Origin: Gloeothece citriformis PCC 7424
GTDB lineage: Bacteria; Cyanobacteriota; Cyanobacteriia; Cyanobacteriales; Microcystaceae
Reading direction: 5' to 3'
Assembly (NCBI RefSeq): GCF_000021825.1
Contig: NC_011729.1
Location: 4,506,969-4,538,968 of the forward strand
Length of the DNA stretch: 32,000 bases
The translations under genes were made by a program, and so were the position numbers. The notes beneath the pieces are model-generated. The model was not told the origin of the DNA and did no database searches. It saw only the letters and a program-made list of their open reading frames with translations. Below, in pieces: positions 15,468-19,798 of this stretch (position 1 is its first letter; each line of letters begins with the position of its first letter).

Positions 15468-15977
15468 GTGAGCTATGTAACAGAACCTCTAAATCATTCC
15501 GTTGTGGTATTCTCTAGAAATTATCTCCCCATCAGTCGGGTTAATATTCGACGAGCAGTTATTCTTCTGGTTACTGGAAAAGCTGAACCGATCGATGTAT
15601 TATCGGAGGCAATTTGGGAAATCCGTTCTCCTAATTTAGTGGTGCAAGTTCCCCCCCAGATTCGCTTAACCCTTAATAGTGGCGATCGACTCTGGAAAAC
15701 TCCCCCAGTCAACCGACGGGAAGTTCTGCGACGGGATAAACATCAGTGTCAATACTGTGGGAGCAAACATAAGCTCACCCTAGATCATATTCTTCCTCGC
15801 TCAAAAGGCGGAAAACACACTTGGGATAATGTAGTTATTGCTTGCGAAAGTTGTAACTCTCGTAAAGGCGATCGCACTCCTTCTGAAGCAGGGATGATCT
15901 TAAAAACTAGCCCCAAAGCTCCCATTCACCCGACTATTCTGTTTGCTGAACAGTTTTGGCAACAACAGCAGTTGTAA
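15468..15977 (+). CDS. HNH endonuclease family protein
   Basis: The HNH core reads HQCQYCGS...LTLDHILPRSKGGKHTWDNVVIACESCNSRKGDR. It has a GTG start and the N-terminal domain typical of this small-HNH family (YLPISRVNIRRAVILLVTGKAE). Confidence 0.88.
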   Translation: MSYVTEPLNHSVVVFSRNYLPISRVNIRRAVILLVTGKAEPIDVLSEAIWEIRSPNLVVQVPPQIRLTLNSGDRLWKTPPVNRREVLRRDKHQCQYCGSKHKLTLDHILPRSKGGKHTWDNVVIACESCNSRKGDRTPSEAGMILKTSPKAPIHPTILFAEQFWQQQQL

Positions 15978-16029
15978 CCCCTAACCAGCTTTTCAATTTG
16001 ATAATCCGAACAAAGGAGAGATTATCCTA

Positions 16030-16416
16030 ATGTTAAAATTAACTTATACAGAAAATGGTTTCCATTTAGAACGTTTATCACAATCCCTAGAAGAGTGGGT
16101 GAATATACGGGTGATGCTTGCTCTACGTTCAGCAACTCCGCTTTATGTTGAACCGAGTACGGCGGCCTTTTTACTGCCGATCGATGTCCCTTATTTAACG
16201 GATCTCGAAAAACTCATCGAAAAAGAAAATGGTTTTTTGGAGTTATCCATGTCTGATGAGGAAACTGTCGAAGTTAGCTTACAGGGAACTTGGATCACTT
16301 CTGATCCAGAGGATGAAGAAGGGGTTTTTATTTGTCTGTTGAGCGATCGCACAGAATTCTTTCTTGAGAAACTCTGGCAAGAAGCCCATTTAGGGGCCTT
16401 TGTAGTCAATGAATAA
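16030..16416 (+). CDS. Hypothetical acidic 128-aa protein, possibly alr0857-type (from memory, not checked)
   Basis: An ATG start 52 nt after the HNH stop, on the same strand. No catalytic motif recognised. Confidence 0.6.
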   Translation: MLKLTYTENGFHLERLSQSLEEWVNIRVMLALRSATPLYVEPSTAAFLLPIDVPYLTDLEKLIEKENGFLELSMSDEETVEVSLQGTWITSDPEDEEGVFICLLSDRTEFFLEKLWQEAHLGAFVVNE

Positions 16417-16447
16417 CCCCCTAAGTCTTCGGGTTGTTTGGTGGTTG

Positions 16448-16487
16448 TTTTAGGGGTAGGCATTCTAGGCTTACCTCTAAAATTTTA
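16448..16487 (+). terminator. Terminator-like hairpin after the 128-aa gene
   Basis: A 13-bp stem (with G-U pairs) pairs ttttaggggtagg with cctctaaaa around the loop cattctagg, followed by tttt. Confidence 0.5.
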
Positions 16488-16561
16488 GAAAATATCTTTT
16501 ATAAAATGGGATTTTATGTTAAAATAGAAAAACTATTGTGTAAATTTTGAGTCAATCTTGG

Positions 16562-16634
<73 letters not shown>

Positions 16635-16695
16635 TTAATGGTCTTCAAGTTTTGCGATCGGCAGATAAAGGCGAATAAATGCTGATGGGAATAAG

Positions 16696-16701
16696 TATAA
16701 T
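16696..16701 (+). promoter_or_regulatory. Candidate -10 box (TATAAT) upstream of the NLR-like locus
   Basis: A perfect TATAAT sits 56 nt upstream of the ATG at 16757. There is no convincing -35 element. Confidence 0.3.
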
Positions 16702-16756
16702 ATCTCCTTCTTAGGCTAGAATTAGAACAAAAAGCTTTTCCTTAGCTCATAAACTG

Positions 16757-17191
16757 ATGGAACTTATTAGTAGCGCAGTAATAAGCCTTGCTTCTGCTTT
16801 TTTAAAAAAAGTTTGGGAAAAAACAGAGGACAAGGCAGCAGATACATTGTTAGAGAAAACTAACAAGTTTTTAGCCTCTCTTAGACAACAATCTCCCGAT
16901 ACAGTCACCGCTATTGAAAAAGCACCTACACAACCCCTTGATTATGGCACGGCTATATTAGAAATTGAATCGGCGGCTAAGTCTAATCCAGATGTAGCTG
17001 AATCTATGGCACAATTGGCAGAAACCGCTAAAGCTGAATCTATTCCTCAATTACAGCAAAAGATAGATGAGATTTTAGAGAAATTGAAGACTGAGAAACA
17101 CTCCCCAACGGTTATTAATCAGCAAAAGTTGGCAGATGAGATTAAAAATAATTTCCAAGGTAACACATTTAATAATACTACCTTTCAATGA
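16757..17191 (+). CDS. 144-aa helical protein. It corresponds to the N-terminal (effector-like) module of the downstream STAND NTPase and ends at an in-frame TGA.
   Basis: It is in the same reading frame as 17267-19798, with no other stop between them. It has a hydrophobic/amphipathic N-terminus (MELISSAVISLASAFL), a helical body and an N/Q/G/T/F-rich tail (NNFQGNTFNNTTFQ). Confidence 0.6.
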   Translation: MELISSAVISLASAFLKKVWEKTEDKAADTLLEKTNKFLASLRQQSPDTVTAIEKAPTQPLDYGTAILEIESAAKSNPDVAESMAQLAETAKAESIPQLQQKIDEILEKLKTEKHSPTVINQQKLADEIKNNFQGNTFNNTTFQ

Positions 17192-17266
17192 CTCCAGTCG
17201 CCCGGACGGGAACGGGCAAAGTTAACTCCCCCTAAATCTATACCTTATCGCGGTTCTGTCCATTTT

Positions 17267-19798
17267 GTGGGACGAGAAAAGGAACTGCACTTGCTGCATG
17301 AAGATTTAGGGAGAGGAGATTTTGTTGCGGTGACGGGAATGGGGGGAGTGGGTAAAACTGAGTTGGTGACTCAGTATGTTAAGCGGTATGGGGAAGCTTA
17401 CGGGGGGATAACTTGGTTTAATGATAGGGAAAGGGGTTTGGCGGCAGAAGTTTTCAAGTTTTTTGTTTTACAGTTAAATTATGAGATTCCCCAAGAGTTA
17501 GGGGGACAACGGTTAAGTCTTAAACAACAATTAGAGTGGTGTTGGAGTAATTATCCGGCTTGTGAGTTGCCTATTTTACTGGTTTTTGATGATGTTACTC
17601 ATTTAGATAATTTTCGGGAGGTTGTTCCTAGTGATAACCGTTTTCGAGTTTTGGTGACGACTCGACTACAATATCTAGACCCTAATTTTATTAGTGAGGT
17701 GGGTTTAGATGTTCTTTCCCCAGAAAATGAACCGGGTAAGGCGTTAGAACTGTTAGAAAGTTTGTTAGGAACGAAAGATAAGCGCGTCCAAAGAAAACCC
17801 CAAGCGGCAGCAAATATATGTCAATGTTTGGAGTTTTTGCCGTTGGGGATAATTTTAGTCGGGGGGTATTTGGTTAATGAGCCGGATTTGTCTTTAGAGA
17901 GAATGTTACAGCGCTTGCAGGAGAAAAAGTTAGCAGAGGAAGCGCTACAGCAACGGGAAAGTCTTAATAAATATGAAAGGGGAGTTAGGGCGGCTTTTGC
18001 GTTAACTTGGGAAGAACTTAATCCTTTGTCTCAACAAGTAGGAATGTTCCTCAGTTTATTCTCTCCTAAGTTGATTCATTGGGATTTGGTGGTAGGGGTT
18101 GTGTGTGACCTCTCCCCTGACCCCTCTCCTACTATGAGAGGGGAGAATATTGACCTCTCCCCCAACCCCTCTCCTACTATGAGAGGGGAGAATATTGATA
18201 TTGTTCCCCCTTCCCTTGTAGGGAAGGGGGTTAGGGGGTTAGGTCTTAATTGGTCGGAGGAGAAGTTAAACGAGGGGAAAAAGCAACTCTATAAACGAAA
18301 TTTGCTGCAACGGGAAGAAGAGAGAGAGGGATGTTATAAAATTCATGCTTTAGTAAGGTGGTTTTTACAGGAAAGGTTAGAGGAGTCAGGGGAGATAAAG
18401 GGAGTTTTAAAACAAACTTTCGCCACCGCGATGATAACTAAGGCTAAAATTATTCCTAAGCAACCCAGTGTTACAGATATTGAAAATGTTAAAGATTTTA
18501 TTCCCCATATAGAAGCATTGGCAGAGAGTTTAATTGAAGAAGCAAAGGACAAAAGACAGGGAAAGATCATTACCTCAGCATTCTTGTCTGATGAGGATAT
18601 TATCCGGCCTTTTGTGGGGGTAGGATGGTTTTATCAAGGGCAGGGGTTATATTTTTTAGCAGAACCTTGGTTAAAGCAATATGTAGATGTGCTTAAAAGT
18701 TACTTTGGAGAAGAACATCCCGATGTAGCAACCAGTTTGAACAATTTAGCCGTACTCTACCATTACCAAGGGCGCTACACTGAAGCCGAACCCCTGTACC
18801 TCCAAGCGTTGGAGATGAGAAAGCAACTGTTAGGGCAATCTCATCCTGATGTGGCAACCAGTTTGAACAATTTAGCCATTCTCTACTATTCAATGGGGCG
18901 CTACGAAAAAGCCGAACCCCTATACCTCGAAGCTTTGGAGATGTATAAGCAACTGTTGGGGCAATCTCATCCTGATGTGGCAACCAGTTTGAACAATTTA
19001 GCCATTCTCTACTATTCAATGGGGCGCTACGAAAAAGCCGAACCCCTATACCTCGAAGCTTTGGAGATGTATAAGCAACTGTTGGGGCAATCTCATCCTG
19101 ATGTGGCAACCAGTTTGAACAATTTAGCCATTCTCTACTATTCAATGGGGCGCTACGAAAAAGCCGAACCCCTATACCTCGAAGCTTTGGAGATGTATAA
19201 GCAACTGTTGGGGCAATCTCATCCTGATGTGGCAACCAGTTTGAACAATTTAGCCATTCTCTACTATTCAATGAGGCGCTACAAAAAAGCTGAACCCCTA
19301 TACCTCGAAGCTTGGGAGATGTATAAGCAACTGTTGGGGCAATCTCATCCTCTTGTCGCAACGAGCTTGAACAATTTAGCCCTTCTCTACTCTTCAATGG
19401 GGCACTACGACAAAGCTGAACCTCTGTTGCTCGAAGCTTTGGAGATGAGTAAGCAACTGTTGGGGCAATCTCATCCTGATGTGGCAACCAGTTTGAACAA
19501 TTTAGCCCTTCTCTACTCTTCAATGGGGCGCTACGAAAAAGCCGAACCTCTCTACCTCGAAGCTTTGGAGATATGTGAACGAGTCTTAGGGAATAATCAT
19601 CCTAATACGGTGGCAATTAGAGAAAATCTTGACCTTATGCAACAGGAACGTACTTCCCTTGACATCTGGAGTCATCGCTTGGGTTACGTTGTTGGAATTT
19701 TGTTAGGAATAGTGATATTACCTGTTGTAATCTTGTTAGTACCCTTTTATGTCCTGTGGTTGCTCTTTAAGCGCTTGTTTACTTTCCTGTTCCGTTAA
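17267..19798 (+). CDS. NLR-like STAND NTPase: NB-ARC domain, about 7.5 KLC-type TPR repeats and a C-terminal hydrophobic (TM) segment. The open frame actually begins at 17192.
   Basis: Walker A VAVTGMGGVGKTELV, Walker B LLVFDDV, RVLVTTR and a GLPLA-like LPLGIILVG. The track's GTG start lies inside the conserved FVGREKEL pre-P-loop motif. The 42-aa TPR units read HPDVATSLNNLAxLYxSMGRYEKAEPLYLEALEM. The C-terminus is LGYVVGILLGIVILPVVILLVPFYVLWLLF. Confidence 0.85.
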   Translation: MGREKELHLLHEDLGRGDFVAVTGMGGVGKTELVTQYVKRYGEAYGGITWFNDRERGLAAEVFKFFVLQLNYEIPQELGGQRLSLKQQLEWCWSNYPACELPILLVFDDVTHLDNFREVVPSDNRFRVLVTTRLQYLDPNFISEVGLDVLSPENEPGKALELLESLLGTKDKRVQRKPQAAANICQCLEFLPLGIILVGGYLVNEPDLSLERMLQRLQEKKLAEEALQQRESLNKYERGVRAAFALTWEELNPLSQQVGMFLSLFSPKLIHWDLVVGVVCDLSPDPSPTMRGENIDLSPNPSPTMRGENIDIVPPSLVGKGVRGLGLNWSEEKLNEGKKQLYKRNLLQREEEREGCYKIHALVRWFLQERLEESGEIKGVLKQTFATAMITKAKIIPKQPSVTDIENVKDFIPHIEALAESLIEEAKDKRQGKIITSAFLSDEDIIRPFVGVGWFYQGQGLYFLAEPWLKQYVDVLKSYFGEEHPDVATSLNNLAVLYHYQGRYTEAEPLYLQALEMRKQLLGQSHPDVATSLNNLAILYYSMGRYEKAEPLYLEALEMYKQLLGQSHPDVATSLNNLAILYYSMGRYEKAEPLYLEALEMYKQLLGQSHPDVATSLNNLAILYYSMGRYEKAEPLYLEALEMYKQLLGQSHPDVATSLNNLAILYYSMRRYKKAEPLYLEAWEMYKQLLGQSHPLVATSLNNLALLYSSMGHYDKAEPLLLEALEMSKQLLGQSHPDVATSLNNLALLYSSMGRYEKAEPLYLEALEICERVLGNNHPNTVAIRENLDLMQQERTSLDIWSHRLGYVVGILLGIVILPVVILLVPFYVLWLLFKRLFTFLFR
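18107..18245 (+). repeat. In-frame insertion of hairpin-forming short dispersed repeats inside the STAND gene
   Basis: Two 45-bp direct repeats (18107-18151 and 18152-18196) each carry the hairpin cccctctc-ctactat-gagagggg. They are followed by a perfect hairpin, cccccttccc-ttgta-gggaaggggg (18206-18230). Together they translate as DLSPDPSPTMRGENIDLSPNPSPTMRGENIDIVPPSLVGKGVRGLG. Confidence 0.85.
18710..19640 (+). repeat. 126-bp tandem repeat array (coding; TPR units)
   Basis: The motif caatctcatcctgatgtgg recurs exactly at 18836, 18962, 19088, 19214 and 19466, with a variant (caatctcatcctcttgtcg) at 19340. Units 18836-18961, 18962-19087 and 19088-19213 are identical base for base by my comparison. 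The flanking units are diverged. Confidence 0.9.

What the first reader, a model, noticed from the sequence alone, without database searches (positions are those of the whole stretch)
16757..19798. NLR-like STAND NTPase with a helical effector-like N-module, TPR sensor and a C-terminal membrane anchor, next to tRNA-Arg
Read as one frame, the locus encodes four parts. First is a ~144-aa all-helical domain whose first ~15 residues are hydrophobic/amphipathic (MELISSAVISLASAFL) and which ends in an N/Q/G/T/F-rich strip (NNFQGNTFNNTTFQ). Next come a linker and FVGREKEL, an NB-ARC NTPase, and about 7.5 KLC-type TPRs. The protein ends in a ~35-residue hydrophobic segment (GILLGIVILPVVILLVPFYVLWLLF). 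This is the tripartite effector-NOD-sensor logic of bacterial NLR/Avs-type immunity and cell-death proteins. The N-module is reminiscent of the Bell/HeLo-like helical executioner domains, with short amyloid-prone tails, described next to NLRs in filamentous Actinobacteria and Cyanobacteria. A C-terminal TM anchor after the TPR sensor is not a standard NLR feature. I cannot assign the N-module to any named family from sequence alone, so it may be an undescribed effector.
Basis: partly seen in the sequence, partly recalled or inferred. Interest (0 to 1): 0.8.

Follow-up and report, generated by a model that had tools for sequence, protein, structure and literature searches.

The report
Leaky stop codon joins toxin to sensor
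A small cell-death protein gene and a large immune-sensor (NLR-like) gene in this cyanobacterium share one reading frame, separated only by a UGA stop codon followed by a conserved RNA hairpin; the same layout recurs in at least 60 distinct cyanobacterial loci and most likely lets ribosomes occasionally read through, so one message makes both the free toxin and a toxin-sensor fusion.

Summary
The four described parts are real, in Gloeothece citriformis PCC 7424. They are not one ORF. A 144-aa ORF (16757-17188) ends at an in-frame TGA (17189-17191). The NB-ARC/TPR/hydrophobic-tail ORF continues in the same frame with no usable start codon.

The N-module is not a new effector. It belongs to the Bell-domain/BASS5 amyloid-signalling family of Dyrka et al. 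2020. Relatives with a TAA stop form canonical Bell-BASS5 + BASS5-NLR gene pairs.

The new result is the junction. In 84 loci (60 non-redundant) the stop is always TGA, usually TGA-C. It is followed by a conserved 8-nt spacer and a 5-bp G+C-rich hairpin with compensatory changes, possibly an H-type pseudoknot. The sensor ORF follows at once, in frame. Synonymous sites in the element are frozen (pS 0.19 against 0.64). The start-less linker behind it is under protein-level selection (dN/dS 0.34). A metagenome search for the RNA element alone found TGA at the expected position in 39 of 39 hits.

Best explanation: programmed UGA readthrough gives abundant free Bell effector plus rare Bell-NLR fusion, which seeds effector activation. 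I found no published description. No experiment supports it yet.

The parts
16757..17188 (+). Bell-type effector ORF (144 aa). Hydrophobic N-terminal helix (res 1-21), helical bundle to about res 112, BASS5-like N/Q/G-rich tail (res ~121-144, 17117-17188: QKLADEIKNNFQGNTFNNTTFQ).
   Evidence: ORF. 28 standalone ~140-aa homologues with a conserved end. 335 relatives in the 1.84e9 representative library, nearly all 120-160 aa. AF2 helices 3-112, tail pLDDT below 50. Class-A relatives carry the BASS5 motif of Dyrka 2020 Table S2. No Pfam, NCBIfam or PADLOC hit.
17189..17191 (+). In-frame UGA stop codon (proposed recoding site), context UGA-C.
   Evidence: TGA in 84 of 84 junctions; +4 is C in 51 of 60 non-redundant. 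Present in two independent assemblies.
17192..17199 (+). Conserved 8-nt spacer CUCCAGUC (consensus CUNNAGUC) between the UGA and the hairpin.
   Evidence: Position-specific conservation. Alignments A2 and A3.
17200..17217 (+). RNA hairpin. Stem GCCCG (17200-17204) pairs with CGGGC (17213-17217). Loop GACGGGAA (17205-17212).
   Evidence: RNAalifold consensus. 97.8% of cells paired; 3 of 5 pairs have compensatory changes; 0 of 500 shuffles reach the covariation score; slid controls 23-56% paired. Covariance model hits once in each of 45 such loci and nowhere else in 833 kb. Unique in the window.
17218..17230 (+). A-rich segment AAAGUUAAC (17218-17226) and UCCC (17227-17230). UCCC can pair with loop GGGA (17208-17211) to form a compact H-type pseudoknot (tentative).
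   Evidence: 82.6% of cells paired but only one pair has a two-sided change. Register-shifted complementary variants in L009, L012, L013, L037, L053, L062 and L063.
17192..17266 (+). Start-less coding linker LQSPGRERAKLTPPKSIPYRGSVHF, upstream of the first canonical start (GTG 17267).
   Evidence: dN/dS 0.34 for codons 14-24 in 26 NB-ARC-type loci. The same PTKSIPYRGSVHFVGRE peptide lies inside class-A NLRs after their own ATG + BASS.
17300..17941 (+). NB-ARC NTPase domain (Walker A GMGGVGKT at 17336-17359).
   Evidence: Pfam PF00931 E 1.1e-12, residues 37-250 of the 868-aa continuation. Walker A found.
18106..18198 (+). In-frame insertion of a 45-nt x2 palindromic mini-repeat (MITE-like) between NB-ARC and TPR.
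18716..19572 (+). TPR sensor array: 126-nt units x6.8, 92% identical (KLC-type TPR_12/TPR_10).
19679..19795 (+). C-terminal hydrophobic tail (30 uncharged residues) followed by KRLFTFLFR; a predicted tail anchor.
   Evidence: KD19 = 3.08. Conserved ...ILPFYLLW... tail in L001, L024, L027, L035 and L075.

Best explanation
The locus is a Bell-domain/BASS5 cell-death effector and an NB-ARC-TPR sensor written in one reading frame. They are separated by a programmed, leaky UGA.

Proposed steps:
1. Most ribosomes terminate at UGA (17189-17191) and release the free 144-aa Bell effector.
2. A minority read the UGA as sense. Near-cognate tRNA-Trp is the usual bacterial reader; this is inference. Readthrough is helped by the weak UGA-C context, the conserved 8-nt spacer and the G+C-rich hairpin (possibly a pseudoknot). 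The hairpin would sit at the mRNA entrance of the ribosome when UGA is in the A site.
3. Readthrough yields a ~1013-aa protein: Bell-BASS-linker-NB-ARC-TPR-hydrophobic tail.
4. In this fusion the amyloid-type BASS tail sits directly N-terminal to the NOD, exactly where canonical two-gene relatives carry their NLR-side BASS.
5. When a ligand makes the NLR oligomerise, the clustered BASS tails would nucleate the amyloid fold. That fold would template the abundant free effector, and its N-terminal helix would then attack the membrane (abortive infection or regulated cell death).

Readthrough would thus supply a perfectly matched motif pair and set a low sensor-to-effector ratio from one mRNA.

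Shown here: the conserved UGA, the in-frame start-less sensor ORF, the RNA-level constraint and stem covariation, and family membership. Inferred: that readthrough occurs, its efficiency, the amino acid inserted, amyloid templating and the defence role.
For: Junction anatomy:
- An in-frame TGA is followed directly by NOD homology, with 0-6 nt gap and frame 0, in all 45 such genome loci. TAA-type relatives have gaps of 118-704 nt in any frame.
- The stop is TGA in 84 of 84 junctions, 60 of them non-redundant.
- Only 4 of 60 have ATG/GTG/TTG within 3 codons of the stop. In 22 of 33 NB-ARC types the first start lies at or after the xVGR motif. In Microcystis it lies inside Walker A.

RNA-level constraint:
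- Third codon positions are near-invariant (TCG 36 of 36, CGG 35 of 36).
- pS is 0.19 in codons 1-13 against 0.64-0.66 downstream.
- L068 keeps the nucleotide sequence despite a 1-nt indel that changes the peptide.
- The hairpin has compensatory changes in 3 of 5 pairs.

Translation of the linker: dN/dS is 0.34 for the start-less linker.

Unbiased test: a metagenome scan for the element, without specifying the stop, gave TGA at the expected position in 39 of 39 hits. In each it lies between a ~135-190-aa ORF and a long ORF.

Negative searches:
- No protein spans the junction in 5.8e9 sequences.
- No terminator-like or + strand promoter-like site lies between the ORFs.

Family logic: class-A relatives are Bell-BASS5 + BASS5-NLR pairs identical to Dyrka Table S2.

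Established knowledge (Rodnina review PMC7026636): UGA is the leakiest stop, C at +4 and UGA-CUA favour readthrough, and MuLV uses an 8-nt spacer plus a pseudoknot.
Against: - There is no experimental evidence (protein, Ribo-seq or reporter) for readthrough here.
- The hairpin is short (5 bp). The single-sequence folding energy of the window region is not exceptional (z = 0.0).
- The second pseudoknot stem has little covariation.
- Structured-RNA-stimulated stop-codon readthrough is, to my knowledge, not established for bacterial chromosomal genes. The Rodnina review lists only a B. subtilis case under Bacteria.
- About ten related loci have short or disrupted downstream ORFs.
- L015 carries a second stop two codons later.
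- Amyloid formation and membrane attack are extrapolated from other Bell/BASS systems.
Confidence: 0.7

Rival explanations
1. Selenocysteine insertion. The UGA encodes Sec and the downstream hairpin is a bacterial SECIS bound by SelB, so the locus makes mainly one full-length selenoprotein NLR.
For: A UGA is followed closely by a conserved stem-loop with a G-rich apical loop. This is formally the layout of a bacterial SECIS.
Against: [quoted passage not shown]
- No Cys-codon (TGY) or any sense-codon homologue exists at this position in 84 junctions or in 5.8e9 proteins. Sec families normally have Cys homologues.
- The site is an unstructured linker, not a redox centre.
- The stem starts 8 nt after the UGA and the loop lacks the E. 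coli GU signature (from my own knowledge).
- Canonical relatives make a separate free effector, so a free short product is expected.
Confidence: 0.05
2. Two independent proteins. Ribosomes always stop at UGA. The NLR is made separately by internal or non-canonical initiation or by termination-reinitiation. The hairpin serves mRNA processing, stability or translational coupling rather than readthrough.
For: Gene callers annotate the NLR from GTG 17267. Four of 60 loci have GTG right after the stop. Translational coupling is common in bacteria.
Against: - The codon after the stop is mostly CUA or CUG (44 of 60); CUA cannot initiate.
- The first canonical start usually lies at or after the conserved xVGR motif, and in Microcystis inside Walker A, which would truncate the NTPase.
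- The start-less linker is under protein-level purifying selection (dN/dS 0.34).
- Strict frame 0 and zero gap in every locus are unnecessary for two independent proteins.
- Exclusive use of UGA, the leakiest stop, is unexplained.
Confidence: 0.12
3. One reading: a single fused NLR protein with a novel, unassigned helical effector N-domain.
For: The two ORFs are in the same frame and the domain order effector-NOD-TPR is correct. More distant relatives carry the Bell-like module fused directly to other domains, such as dynamin-like GTPases.
Against: - A TGA interrupts the frame and is conserved in 84 loci.
- All close homologues of the N-module are standalone ~140-aa proteins ending at the same place.
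- The module belongs to the described Bell/BASS5 family.
Confidence: 0.03
4. Decaying pseudogene or assembly error. The stop is a recent nonsense mutation in a fused NLR.
For: A few related loci are disrupted (L003, L008, L069, L083).
Against: - The same TGA is seen in two independent assemblies.
- TGA is conserved at the same position across lineages whose synonymous sites are near saturation (pS 0.64), with intact downstream ORFs of median 639 aa.
Confidence: 0.01

Closest known systems
Bell-domain/BASS - NLR amyloid-signalling gene pairs of filamentous bacteria (Dyrka et al. 2020, bioRxiv 10.1101/2020.01.06.895854), specifically BASS5
   Same: The effector family is the same: a ~100-aa helical domain with an MEPxx hydrophobic N-terminus and a C-terminal KLA[DE]KI...QGG/N... 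motif. The partners are the same NB-ARC-TPR proteins. TAA-type relatives found here carry the very motif pair in their Table S2.
   Different: Here the NLR has no start codon and no N-terminal BASS of its own. The two genes are one frame split by a conserved UGA plus an RNA hairpin. The paper does not mention stop codons or readthrough, and I expect a screen for motifs shared by adjacent annotated genes to miss this class (inference).
Bab/Agp antiphage abortive-infection system of E. coli (Ibarlosa et al. 2024, bioRxiv 10.1101/2024.11.07.622273)
   Same: A Bell-type membrane-targeting effector with a C-terminal amyloid motif is activated by a sensor that carries the same motif. This supplies the only experimental function for Bell/BASS systems.
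   Different: [quoted passage not shown] The Foldseek PDB search with the N-module model gave no significant match to any entry; whether the Bab structure (PDB 9H9V) is in that copy was not checked.
Fungal HET-S/NWD2 and 'all-in-one' versus two-gene NLR architectures
   Same: The logic is the same: the NLR N-terminal motif templates a pore-forming effector. Both fused and split architectures exist.
   Different: The present layout is a third architecture, fused and split at once through recoding. It is not described for fungi in the papers read.
Viral programmed stop-codon readthrough with a 3' structure (MuLV gag-pol: UAG + 8-nt spacer + pseudoknot; Q-beta A1: leaky UGA)
   Same: A leaky stop, an in-frame extension, two products from one mRNA in unequal amounts, an 8-nt spacer, then a structured element. 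UGA-C/UGA-CUA context (for the known cases; for this element).
   Different: This is a cellular bacterial gene family. The stem is shorter (5 bp) and the pseudoknot is unproven. The extension is ~870 aa and carries the whole sensor. No sequence similarity or Rfam family was found.
Bacterial SECIS/selenoprotein genes
   Same: An in-frame UGA followed by a conserved hairpin.
   Different: No Sec trait is reported in cyanobacteria. There are no Cys homologues. The position is a linker.
Antiphage NLR-like STAND proteins (Avs/bNACHT)
   Same: Tripartite effector-NTPase-repeat design. The Ibarlosa paper notes the MEPIS-type N-terminus in Avast2 and several bNACHTs.
   Different: PADLOC gives only generic TPR or weak P-loop hits and no system assignment. 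The effector is released as a separate protein by a stop codon.

Membership tests
Bell domain / BASS amyloid-signalling effector (Dyrka 2020) | ~100-aa all-alpha domain with a conserved hydrophobic N-terminal helix ('MEPIS'-type motif) | tested here: met
   AF2 model: helices 3-21, 26-45, 47-54, 63-76, 78-93, 97-112. Family consensus MEPLTTAAIAxGS.... The window copy reads MELISSAVISLAS. The motif is described.
Bell domain / BASS amyloid-signalling effector (Dyrka 2020) | C-terminal ~25-aa N/Q/G-rich motif repeated at the N-terminus of the adjacent NLR | tested here: not met
   Met in TAA-type homologues (KLADKIGQVVMPGGTGNIQNQSF against MPEDSGKFADKVGAFAAPGSQVNIGTQII; identical to Table S2 BASS5). 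Not met in the window: the effector tail is present, but the NLR has no motif of its own and no start codon.
Bell domain / BASS amyloid-signalling effector (Dyrka 2020) | Sequence homology to proteins the authors list as Bell/BASS5 | tested here: met
   Class-A loci, 45-50% identical to the window N-module over residues ~3-143, carry the exact GAX34748.1 motif.
Bell domain / BASS amyloid-signalling effector (Dyrka 2020) | Amyloid or prion formation of the tail; membrane targeting and toxicity of the domain | not testable with these tools
   Needs ThT/EM/ssNMR and expression assays.
NLR-like STAND NTPase (NB-ARC + TPR) | NB-ARC P-loop NTPase followed by a repeat sensor | tested here: met
   PF00931 E 1.1e-12; Walker A GMGGVGKT; TPR_12 E 1e-127 with 7 units; NCBIfam FxSxx_TPR 306 bits.
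Programmed stop-codon readthrough with a 3' stimulatory structure | Conserved leaky stop (UGA/UAG) with a long conserved in-frame ORF lacking its own start | tested here: met
   TGA in 84 of 84; frame 0, gap 0; start-codon statistics.
Programmed stop-codon readthrough with a 3' stimulatory structure | Conserved spacer and RNA structure ~8 nt downstream, supported by covariation and synonymous-site suppression | tested here: met
   for the hairpin. The pseudoknot stem 2 is inconclusive.
Programmed stop-codon readthrough with a 3' stimulatory structure | Purifying selection on the protein encoded after the stop | tested here: met
   dN/dS 0.34 (codons 14-24) and 0.26 (codons 25-47).
Programmed stop-codon readthrough with a 3' stimulatory structure | Direct detection of both products, and dependence on the stop context and structure | not testable with these tools
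   Needs reporters, western blot or mass spectrometry, or Ribo-seq.
Bacterial selenoprotein (UGA + SECIS) | Host encodes SelA/SelB/tRNA-Sec | not tested
   Whole genomes were not searchable here. The literature reports no Sec-decoding trait in Cyanobacteria.
Bacterial selenoprotein (UGA + SECIS) | Cys-containing homologues at the Sec position | tested here: not met
   No TGY or sense codon in 84 junctions. No junction-spanning protein in 5.8e9 sequences.
Known anti-phage defence systems (PADLOC-DB v2) | Match to a system-specific model | tested here: not met
   The N-module has no hits. The NLR has only generic TPR and weak P-loop matches.

The most novel reading that the evidence does not exclude
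Cyanobacteria use a dedicated recoding cassette (UGA-C, an 8-nt spacer, and a compact hairpin or H-type pseudoknot) as a general 'soft joint' between death effectors and diverse sensors. The effectors are several Bell families and at least one alpha/beta-hydrolase. The sensors are NB-ARC, NACHT, AAA-TPR, CHASE2 and PsbP-like membrane proteins. Under this reading it would be the first widespread, structure-stimulated programmed stop-codon readthrough in bacterial chromosomal genes. It would also be a third NLR architecture, in which one mRNA yields both the rare nucleating receptor and the abundant polymerising executioner. Readthrough efficiency could itself be a regulated trigger threshold.
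Probability: 0.55. Interest if true: 0.92.

Novelty: new variant of a known kind. Interest (0 to 1): 0.86.

Why it matters
Recoding. Programmed stop-codon readthrough driven by a downstream RNA structure is textbook for retroviruses and plant viruses. To my knowledge it is essentially undocumented for bacterial cellular genes. A conserved, easily assayed 45-nt cassette present in dozens of cyanobacterial genera would give a tractable bacterial model for it.

Prokaryotic immunity. The layout suggests how sensor-to-effector stoichiometry and perfect motif matching can be hard-wired in amyloid-type signalling. It adds a third NLR architecture beside 'all-in-one' and 'two-gene'.

Annotation. Current pipelines truncate these NLRs at an internal GTG or ATG and call the effector a hypothetical protein. 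Motif-pair screens for amyloid signalling would probably miss the whole class (inference).

Tried and rejected
- Pfam, NCBIfam and PADLOC on the N-module gave no family.
- The N-module profile against PDB sequences gave only noise, E of 0.058 or higher.
- The AF2 model (pLDDT 66.5) searched with Foldseek against the PDB gave nothing with E below 0.7. The fold comparison is therefore uninformative, and Bell membership rests on sequence and motif homology.
- Rfam at E up to 10 across 16400-17500 found only the tRNA.
- The single-sequence RNA fold of the window junction has z = 0. It is not informative by itself, and covariation carries the argument.
- The palindrome GACUNNAGUC around the stop shows no compensatory change, so I treat it as a sequence-conserved spacer, not a helix.
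- I searched for sense-codon 'all-in-one' versions of the junction and found none. Long proteins with the module are different fusions (dynamin-like GTPase, HEAT) or deletions.
- I tested whether tRNA-Arg is part of the system. It is not conserved in 59 other loci.
- Scans for an intrinsic terminator or an internal promoter between the ORFs found none on the + strand.
- A viral-contig scan for the element gave 0 hits.
- The frameshift and hop ideas were dropped. The frame is unchanged, and no slippery or landing sites are conserved.
- One literature query timed out. Later queries found no prior report.

Full report
**1. What is in the sequence**

The window comes from Gloeothece (Cyanothece) citriformis PCC 7424; the 144-aa product is 100% identical to an NCBI protein of that strain.

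Between 16757 and 19798 there are two ORFs in the same frame:
- 16757-17191 encodes 144 aa and ends in TGA at 17189-17191.
- An open frame then continues without interruption to 19798 (868 codons). Its first ATG/GTG/TTG is GTG 17267. That codon is the V of the conserved FVGRE motif.

- The downstream frame carries an NB-ARC domain (PF00931, E 1e-12) and seven KLC-type TPR units.
- The TPR units form a 126-nt x6.8 tandem array, 92% identical.
- The frame ends in a 30-residue uncharged segment with Kyte-Doolittle mean 3.08.
- tRNA-Arg(TCT) lies at 16562-16634.

The phrase 'read as one frame' overlooks the stop codon. The TGA is reproduced in two independent SRA assemblies.

**2. The N-module is a Bell/BASS5 effector, not an unknown domain**

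No Pfam, NCBIfam, PADLOC, PDB-sequence or Foldseek match was obtained. Even so, the protein has many homologues. There are 28 in the word-indexed search and 335 in the exhaustive representative search, almost all 120-160 aa. They end at the same place with a conserved tail, KLADEIKNVFQGNTF..TF. The AF2 model is a helical bundle over residues 3-112 with a disordered tail.

I fetched 80 genomic loci encoding relatives. About 30 of them end in TAA or TAG. In these an NB-ARC-TPR gene lies 118-704 nt downstream in any frame. That NLR begins MPEDSGKFADKVGAFAAPGSQVNIGTQII, which mirrors the effector tail KLADKIGQVVMPGGTGNIQNQSF.

This is literally the BASS5 pair GAX34748.1/GAX34747.1 in Table S2 of Dyrka et al. 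2020. The family N-terminus MEPLT... corresponds to the 'MEPIS' motif that marks Bell/Hell domains.

**3. The junction is the real finding**

The other 45 genomic loci, including the window, behave differently:
- The effector ORF ends in TGA.
- Homology to the NLR begins 0-6 nt after the stop, always in frame 0.
- The in-frame continuation runs 200-1230 codons.
- A canonical start codon is usually absent until the xVGR motif or later. In Microcystis the first one is the Met inside GMGGVGKT.

The 45 nt after the stop are conserved at the nucleotide level: TGA CTN NAG TCG YCY GNN NGG GAA CGG RCA AAG TTA ANY CCC. Third codon positions are invariant, for example TCG in 36 of 36 and CGG in 35 of 36. 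L068 keeps this sequence despite a 1-nt insertion that changes the encoded peptide.

RNAalifold and explicit pair counting give a 5-bp hairpin. In the window, 17200-17204 pairs with 17213-17217, with an 8-nt loop. The supporting numbers:
- 97.8% of cells are paired.
- Three of five pairs show compensatory changes, for example U-A 19 against C-G 15.
- No shuffle out of 500 reaches the observed covariation score.
- Slid controls give 23-56% pairing.

The loop GGGA can pair with UCCC at 17227-17230 across an A-rich segment. That is the topology of a compact H-type pseudoknot. This second stem has little clean covariation, so I treat it as tentative.

**4. Tests of the link between element, UGA and translation**

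- A covariance model of the element hits once in each of the 45 loci and nowhere else in 833 kb.
- A scan of 241 million metagenome records used the element pattern without specifying the stop. It gave 39 hits. In all 39 the codon at the expected position is TGA, in frame between a ~135-190-aa ORF and a long ORF.
- Pooling all loci gives 84 junctions, 60 non-redundant at below 90% identity. All have TGA. The +4 base is C in 51 of 60. The next codon is CTA or CTG in 44 of 60.
- Nei-Gojobori counts on 26 NB-ARC-type junctions show synonymous change suppressed in the element: pS 0.19 with dN/dS 0.91, against pS 0.64-0.66 just downstream. The start-less linker (codons 14-24) has dN/dS 0.34, like the NTPase start at 0.26. 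It therefore evolves as translated protein.
- No protein in a 5.8-billion-sequence database spans the junction. No sense-codon variant was found.
- No terminator-like site, and no + strand promoter-like site, separates the ORFs.

**5. Modularity**

The same TGA+hairpin follows several divergent Bell-like families with different N/Q/G-rich tails. It also follows one alpha/beta-hydrolase-like ORF.

It precedes a range of partners:
- NB-ARC-TPR
- NACHT (+HEAT/NCC-H)
- AAA-TPR
- CHASE2
- a TM+PsbP-like protein
- a CHAT-TPR-like protein

It therefore behaves as a portable joint between effector and sensor modules. All carriers are cyanobacteria: Nostoc, Tolypothrix, Brasilonema, Scytonema, Stigonema, Anabaena, Microcystis, Microcoleus, Gloeothece and others. 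The element is absent from the viral contig collection.

**6. Mechanism proposed**

The features are those of programmed stop-codon readthrough as known from viruses (review PMC7026636):
- UGA is the leakiest stop.
- C at +4 and UGA-CUA contexts favour readthrough.
- MuLV has an 8-nt spacer before a stimulatory structure.

Most ribosomes would terminate and give the free Bell effector. A minority would read through and give Bell-BASS-NB-ARC-TPR-tail. Canonical relatives place a BASS directly before the same PTKSIPYRGSVHFVGRE linker. The readthrough product therefore puts an identical BASS in the equivalent place.

By analogy with Bell/BASS and HET-S/NWD2 signalling and the Bab/Agp antiphage system, NLR oligomerisation would nucleate the amyloid fold. 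That fold would convert the excess free effector, which then attacks the membrane.

These last steps are inference. So is the identity of the inserted residue (Trp expected, from my own knowledge of bacterial UGA leakiness).

**7. Rivals**

- Selenocysteine is formally compatible with UGA plus a hairpin. It is unlikely. Surveys found no Sec-decoding trait in cyanobacteria, there are no Cys homologues, and the site is a linker.
- Independent initiation or reinitiation of the NLR does not explain the strict frame, the zero gap, the exclusive UGA, CUA as the next codon, or selection on the start-less linker.
- Pseudogene or sequencing error is excluded by conservation and replication.

**8. Prior knowledge**

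None of these papers mentions stop codons, readthrough or recoding: Dyrka 2020, the two Kaur/Aravind eLife papers on STAND conflict systems, and Ibarlosa 2024. Full-text searches combining readthrough with NLR, amyloid signalling or cyanobacteria returned nothing relevant.

I therefore rate this a new variant of a known kind. A known effector/NLR system is joined by a recoding device known from viruses but, to my knowledge, not from bacterial chromosomal genes.

**9.

- The C-terminal hydrophobic tail is real. It is conserved as ...ILPFYLLW... in the nearest NLR relatives: L001, L024, L027, L035 and L075. A tail-anchor role is plausible but untested.
- The flanking genes are housekeeping or unrelated: phosphoglucomutase, FIST, HNH, ArsP permease.
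- The tRNA adjacency is not conserved.

Noticed in passing
window 18106-18198 (partner arm 18379-18395): A 45-nt unit, repeated twice in tandem and internally palindromic (CCCCTCTCC...GAGAGGGG), is inserted in frame in the NLR between NB-ARC and TPR. It encodes DLSP(D/N)PSPTMRGENI twice. It looks like a cyanobacterial MITE-like mini-repeat tolerated inside a coding region.
   Followed up: partly
window 18716-19572: The TPR array consists of 126-nt units x6.8 at 92% identity. Three 42-aa units are identical, which points to recent repeat expansion or homogenisation. The 276-aa antisense ORF 18693-19523 is a by-product of the repeat.
   Followed up: partly
window 16562-16634: tRNA-Arg(TCT) lies 122 nt upstream of the effector ORF. 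AGA is near-cognate to UGA at codon position 1. No tRNA lies near the cassette in 59 other loci, so the adjacency looks incidental.
   Followed up: yes
L015 6421-6429 (= L105): A Brasilonema MAG has TGA CTG TAG: a second in-frame stop two codons after the UGA. The hairpin and NLR ORF are otherwise intact. This could be a pseudogene, an assembly error or double readthrough.
   Followed up: no
L068 4437-4485: A 1-nt insertion in the hairpin loop leaves the nucleotide element intact but changes the encoded linker peptide (LQSSEVGTDKVKSP). This is direct evidence that the RNA sequence, not the peptide, is what is conserved.
   Followed up: yes
L103 683-1642: An alpha/beta-hydrolase-like ORF (DUF676/PGAP1-like, GxSxG motif HSMGG) sits upstream of the same TGA+hairpin in place of a Bell domain. 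The cassette is therefore not restricted to Bell effectors.
   Followed up: partly
L006, L007, L009, L056: The TGA+hairpin is followed not by an NTPase but by membrane proteins: a TM segment plus a PsbP-like domain, or a CHASE2 sensor. This implies Bell-sensor readthrough fusions outside the NLR class.
   Followed up: partly
P0094, P0151, P0156 (also P0065, P0103): More distant Bell-like N-modules without a BASS tail are fused directly, with no stop, to dynamin-like GTPases or other long proteins.
   Followed up: partly
L058 6001-9148: A deletion joins a Bell-BASS5 ORF to the middle (winged-helix region) of an NB-ARC-TPR gene and removes the NTPase. It is probably a decayed locus.
   Followed up: partly
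L086 7320-7410: ARAGORN reports an odd 'tRNA-??? (cccg)' that overlaps the recoding element on the opposite strand. It is probably spurious.
   Followed up: no
elsewhere in the PCC 7424 genome (not in the window): Dyrka 2020 Table S2 lists a canonical two-gene Bell/BASS5-NLR pair (ACK70198.1/ACK70197.1) in the same strain. Both architectures therefore coexist in one genome.
   Followed up: no
window 15468-16416: An HNH endonuclease ORF (15468-15977) and an Alr0857-family small ORF (16030-16416) lie just upstream of the tRNA. The relation to the cassette is unknown.
   Followed up: no
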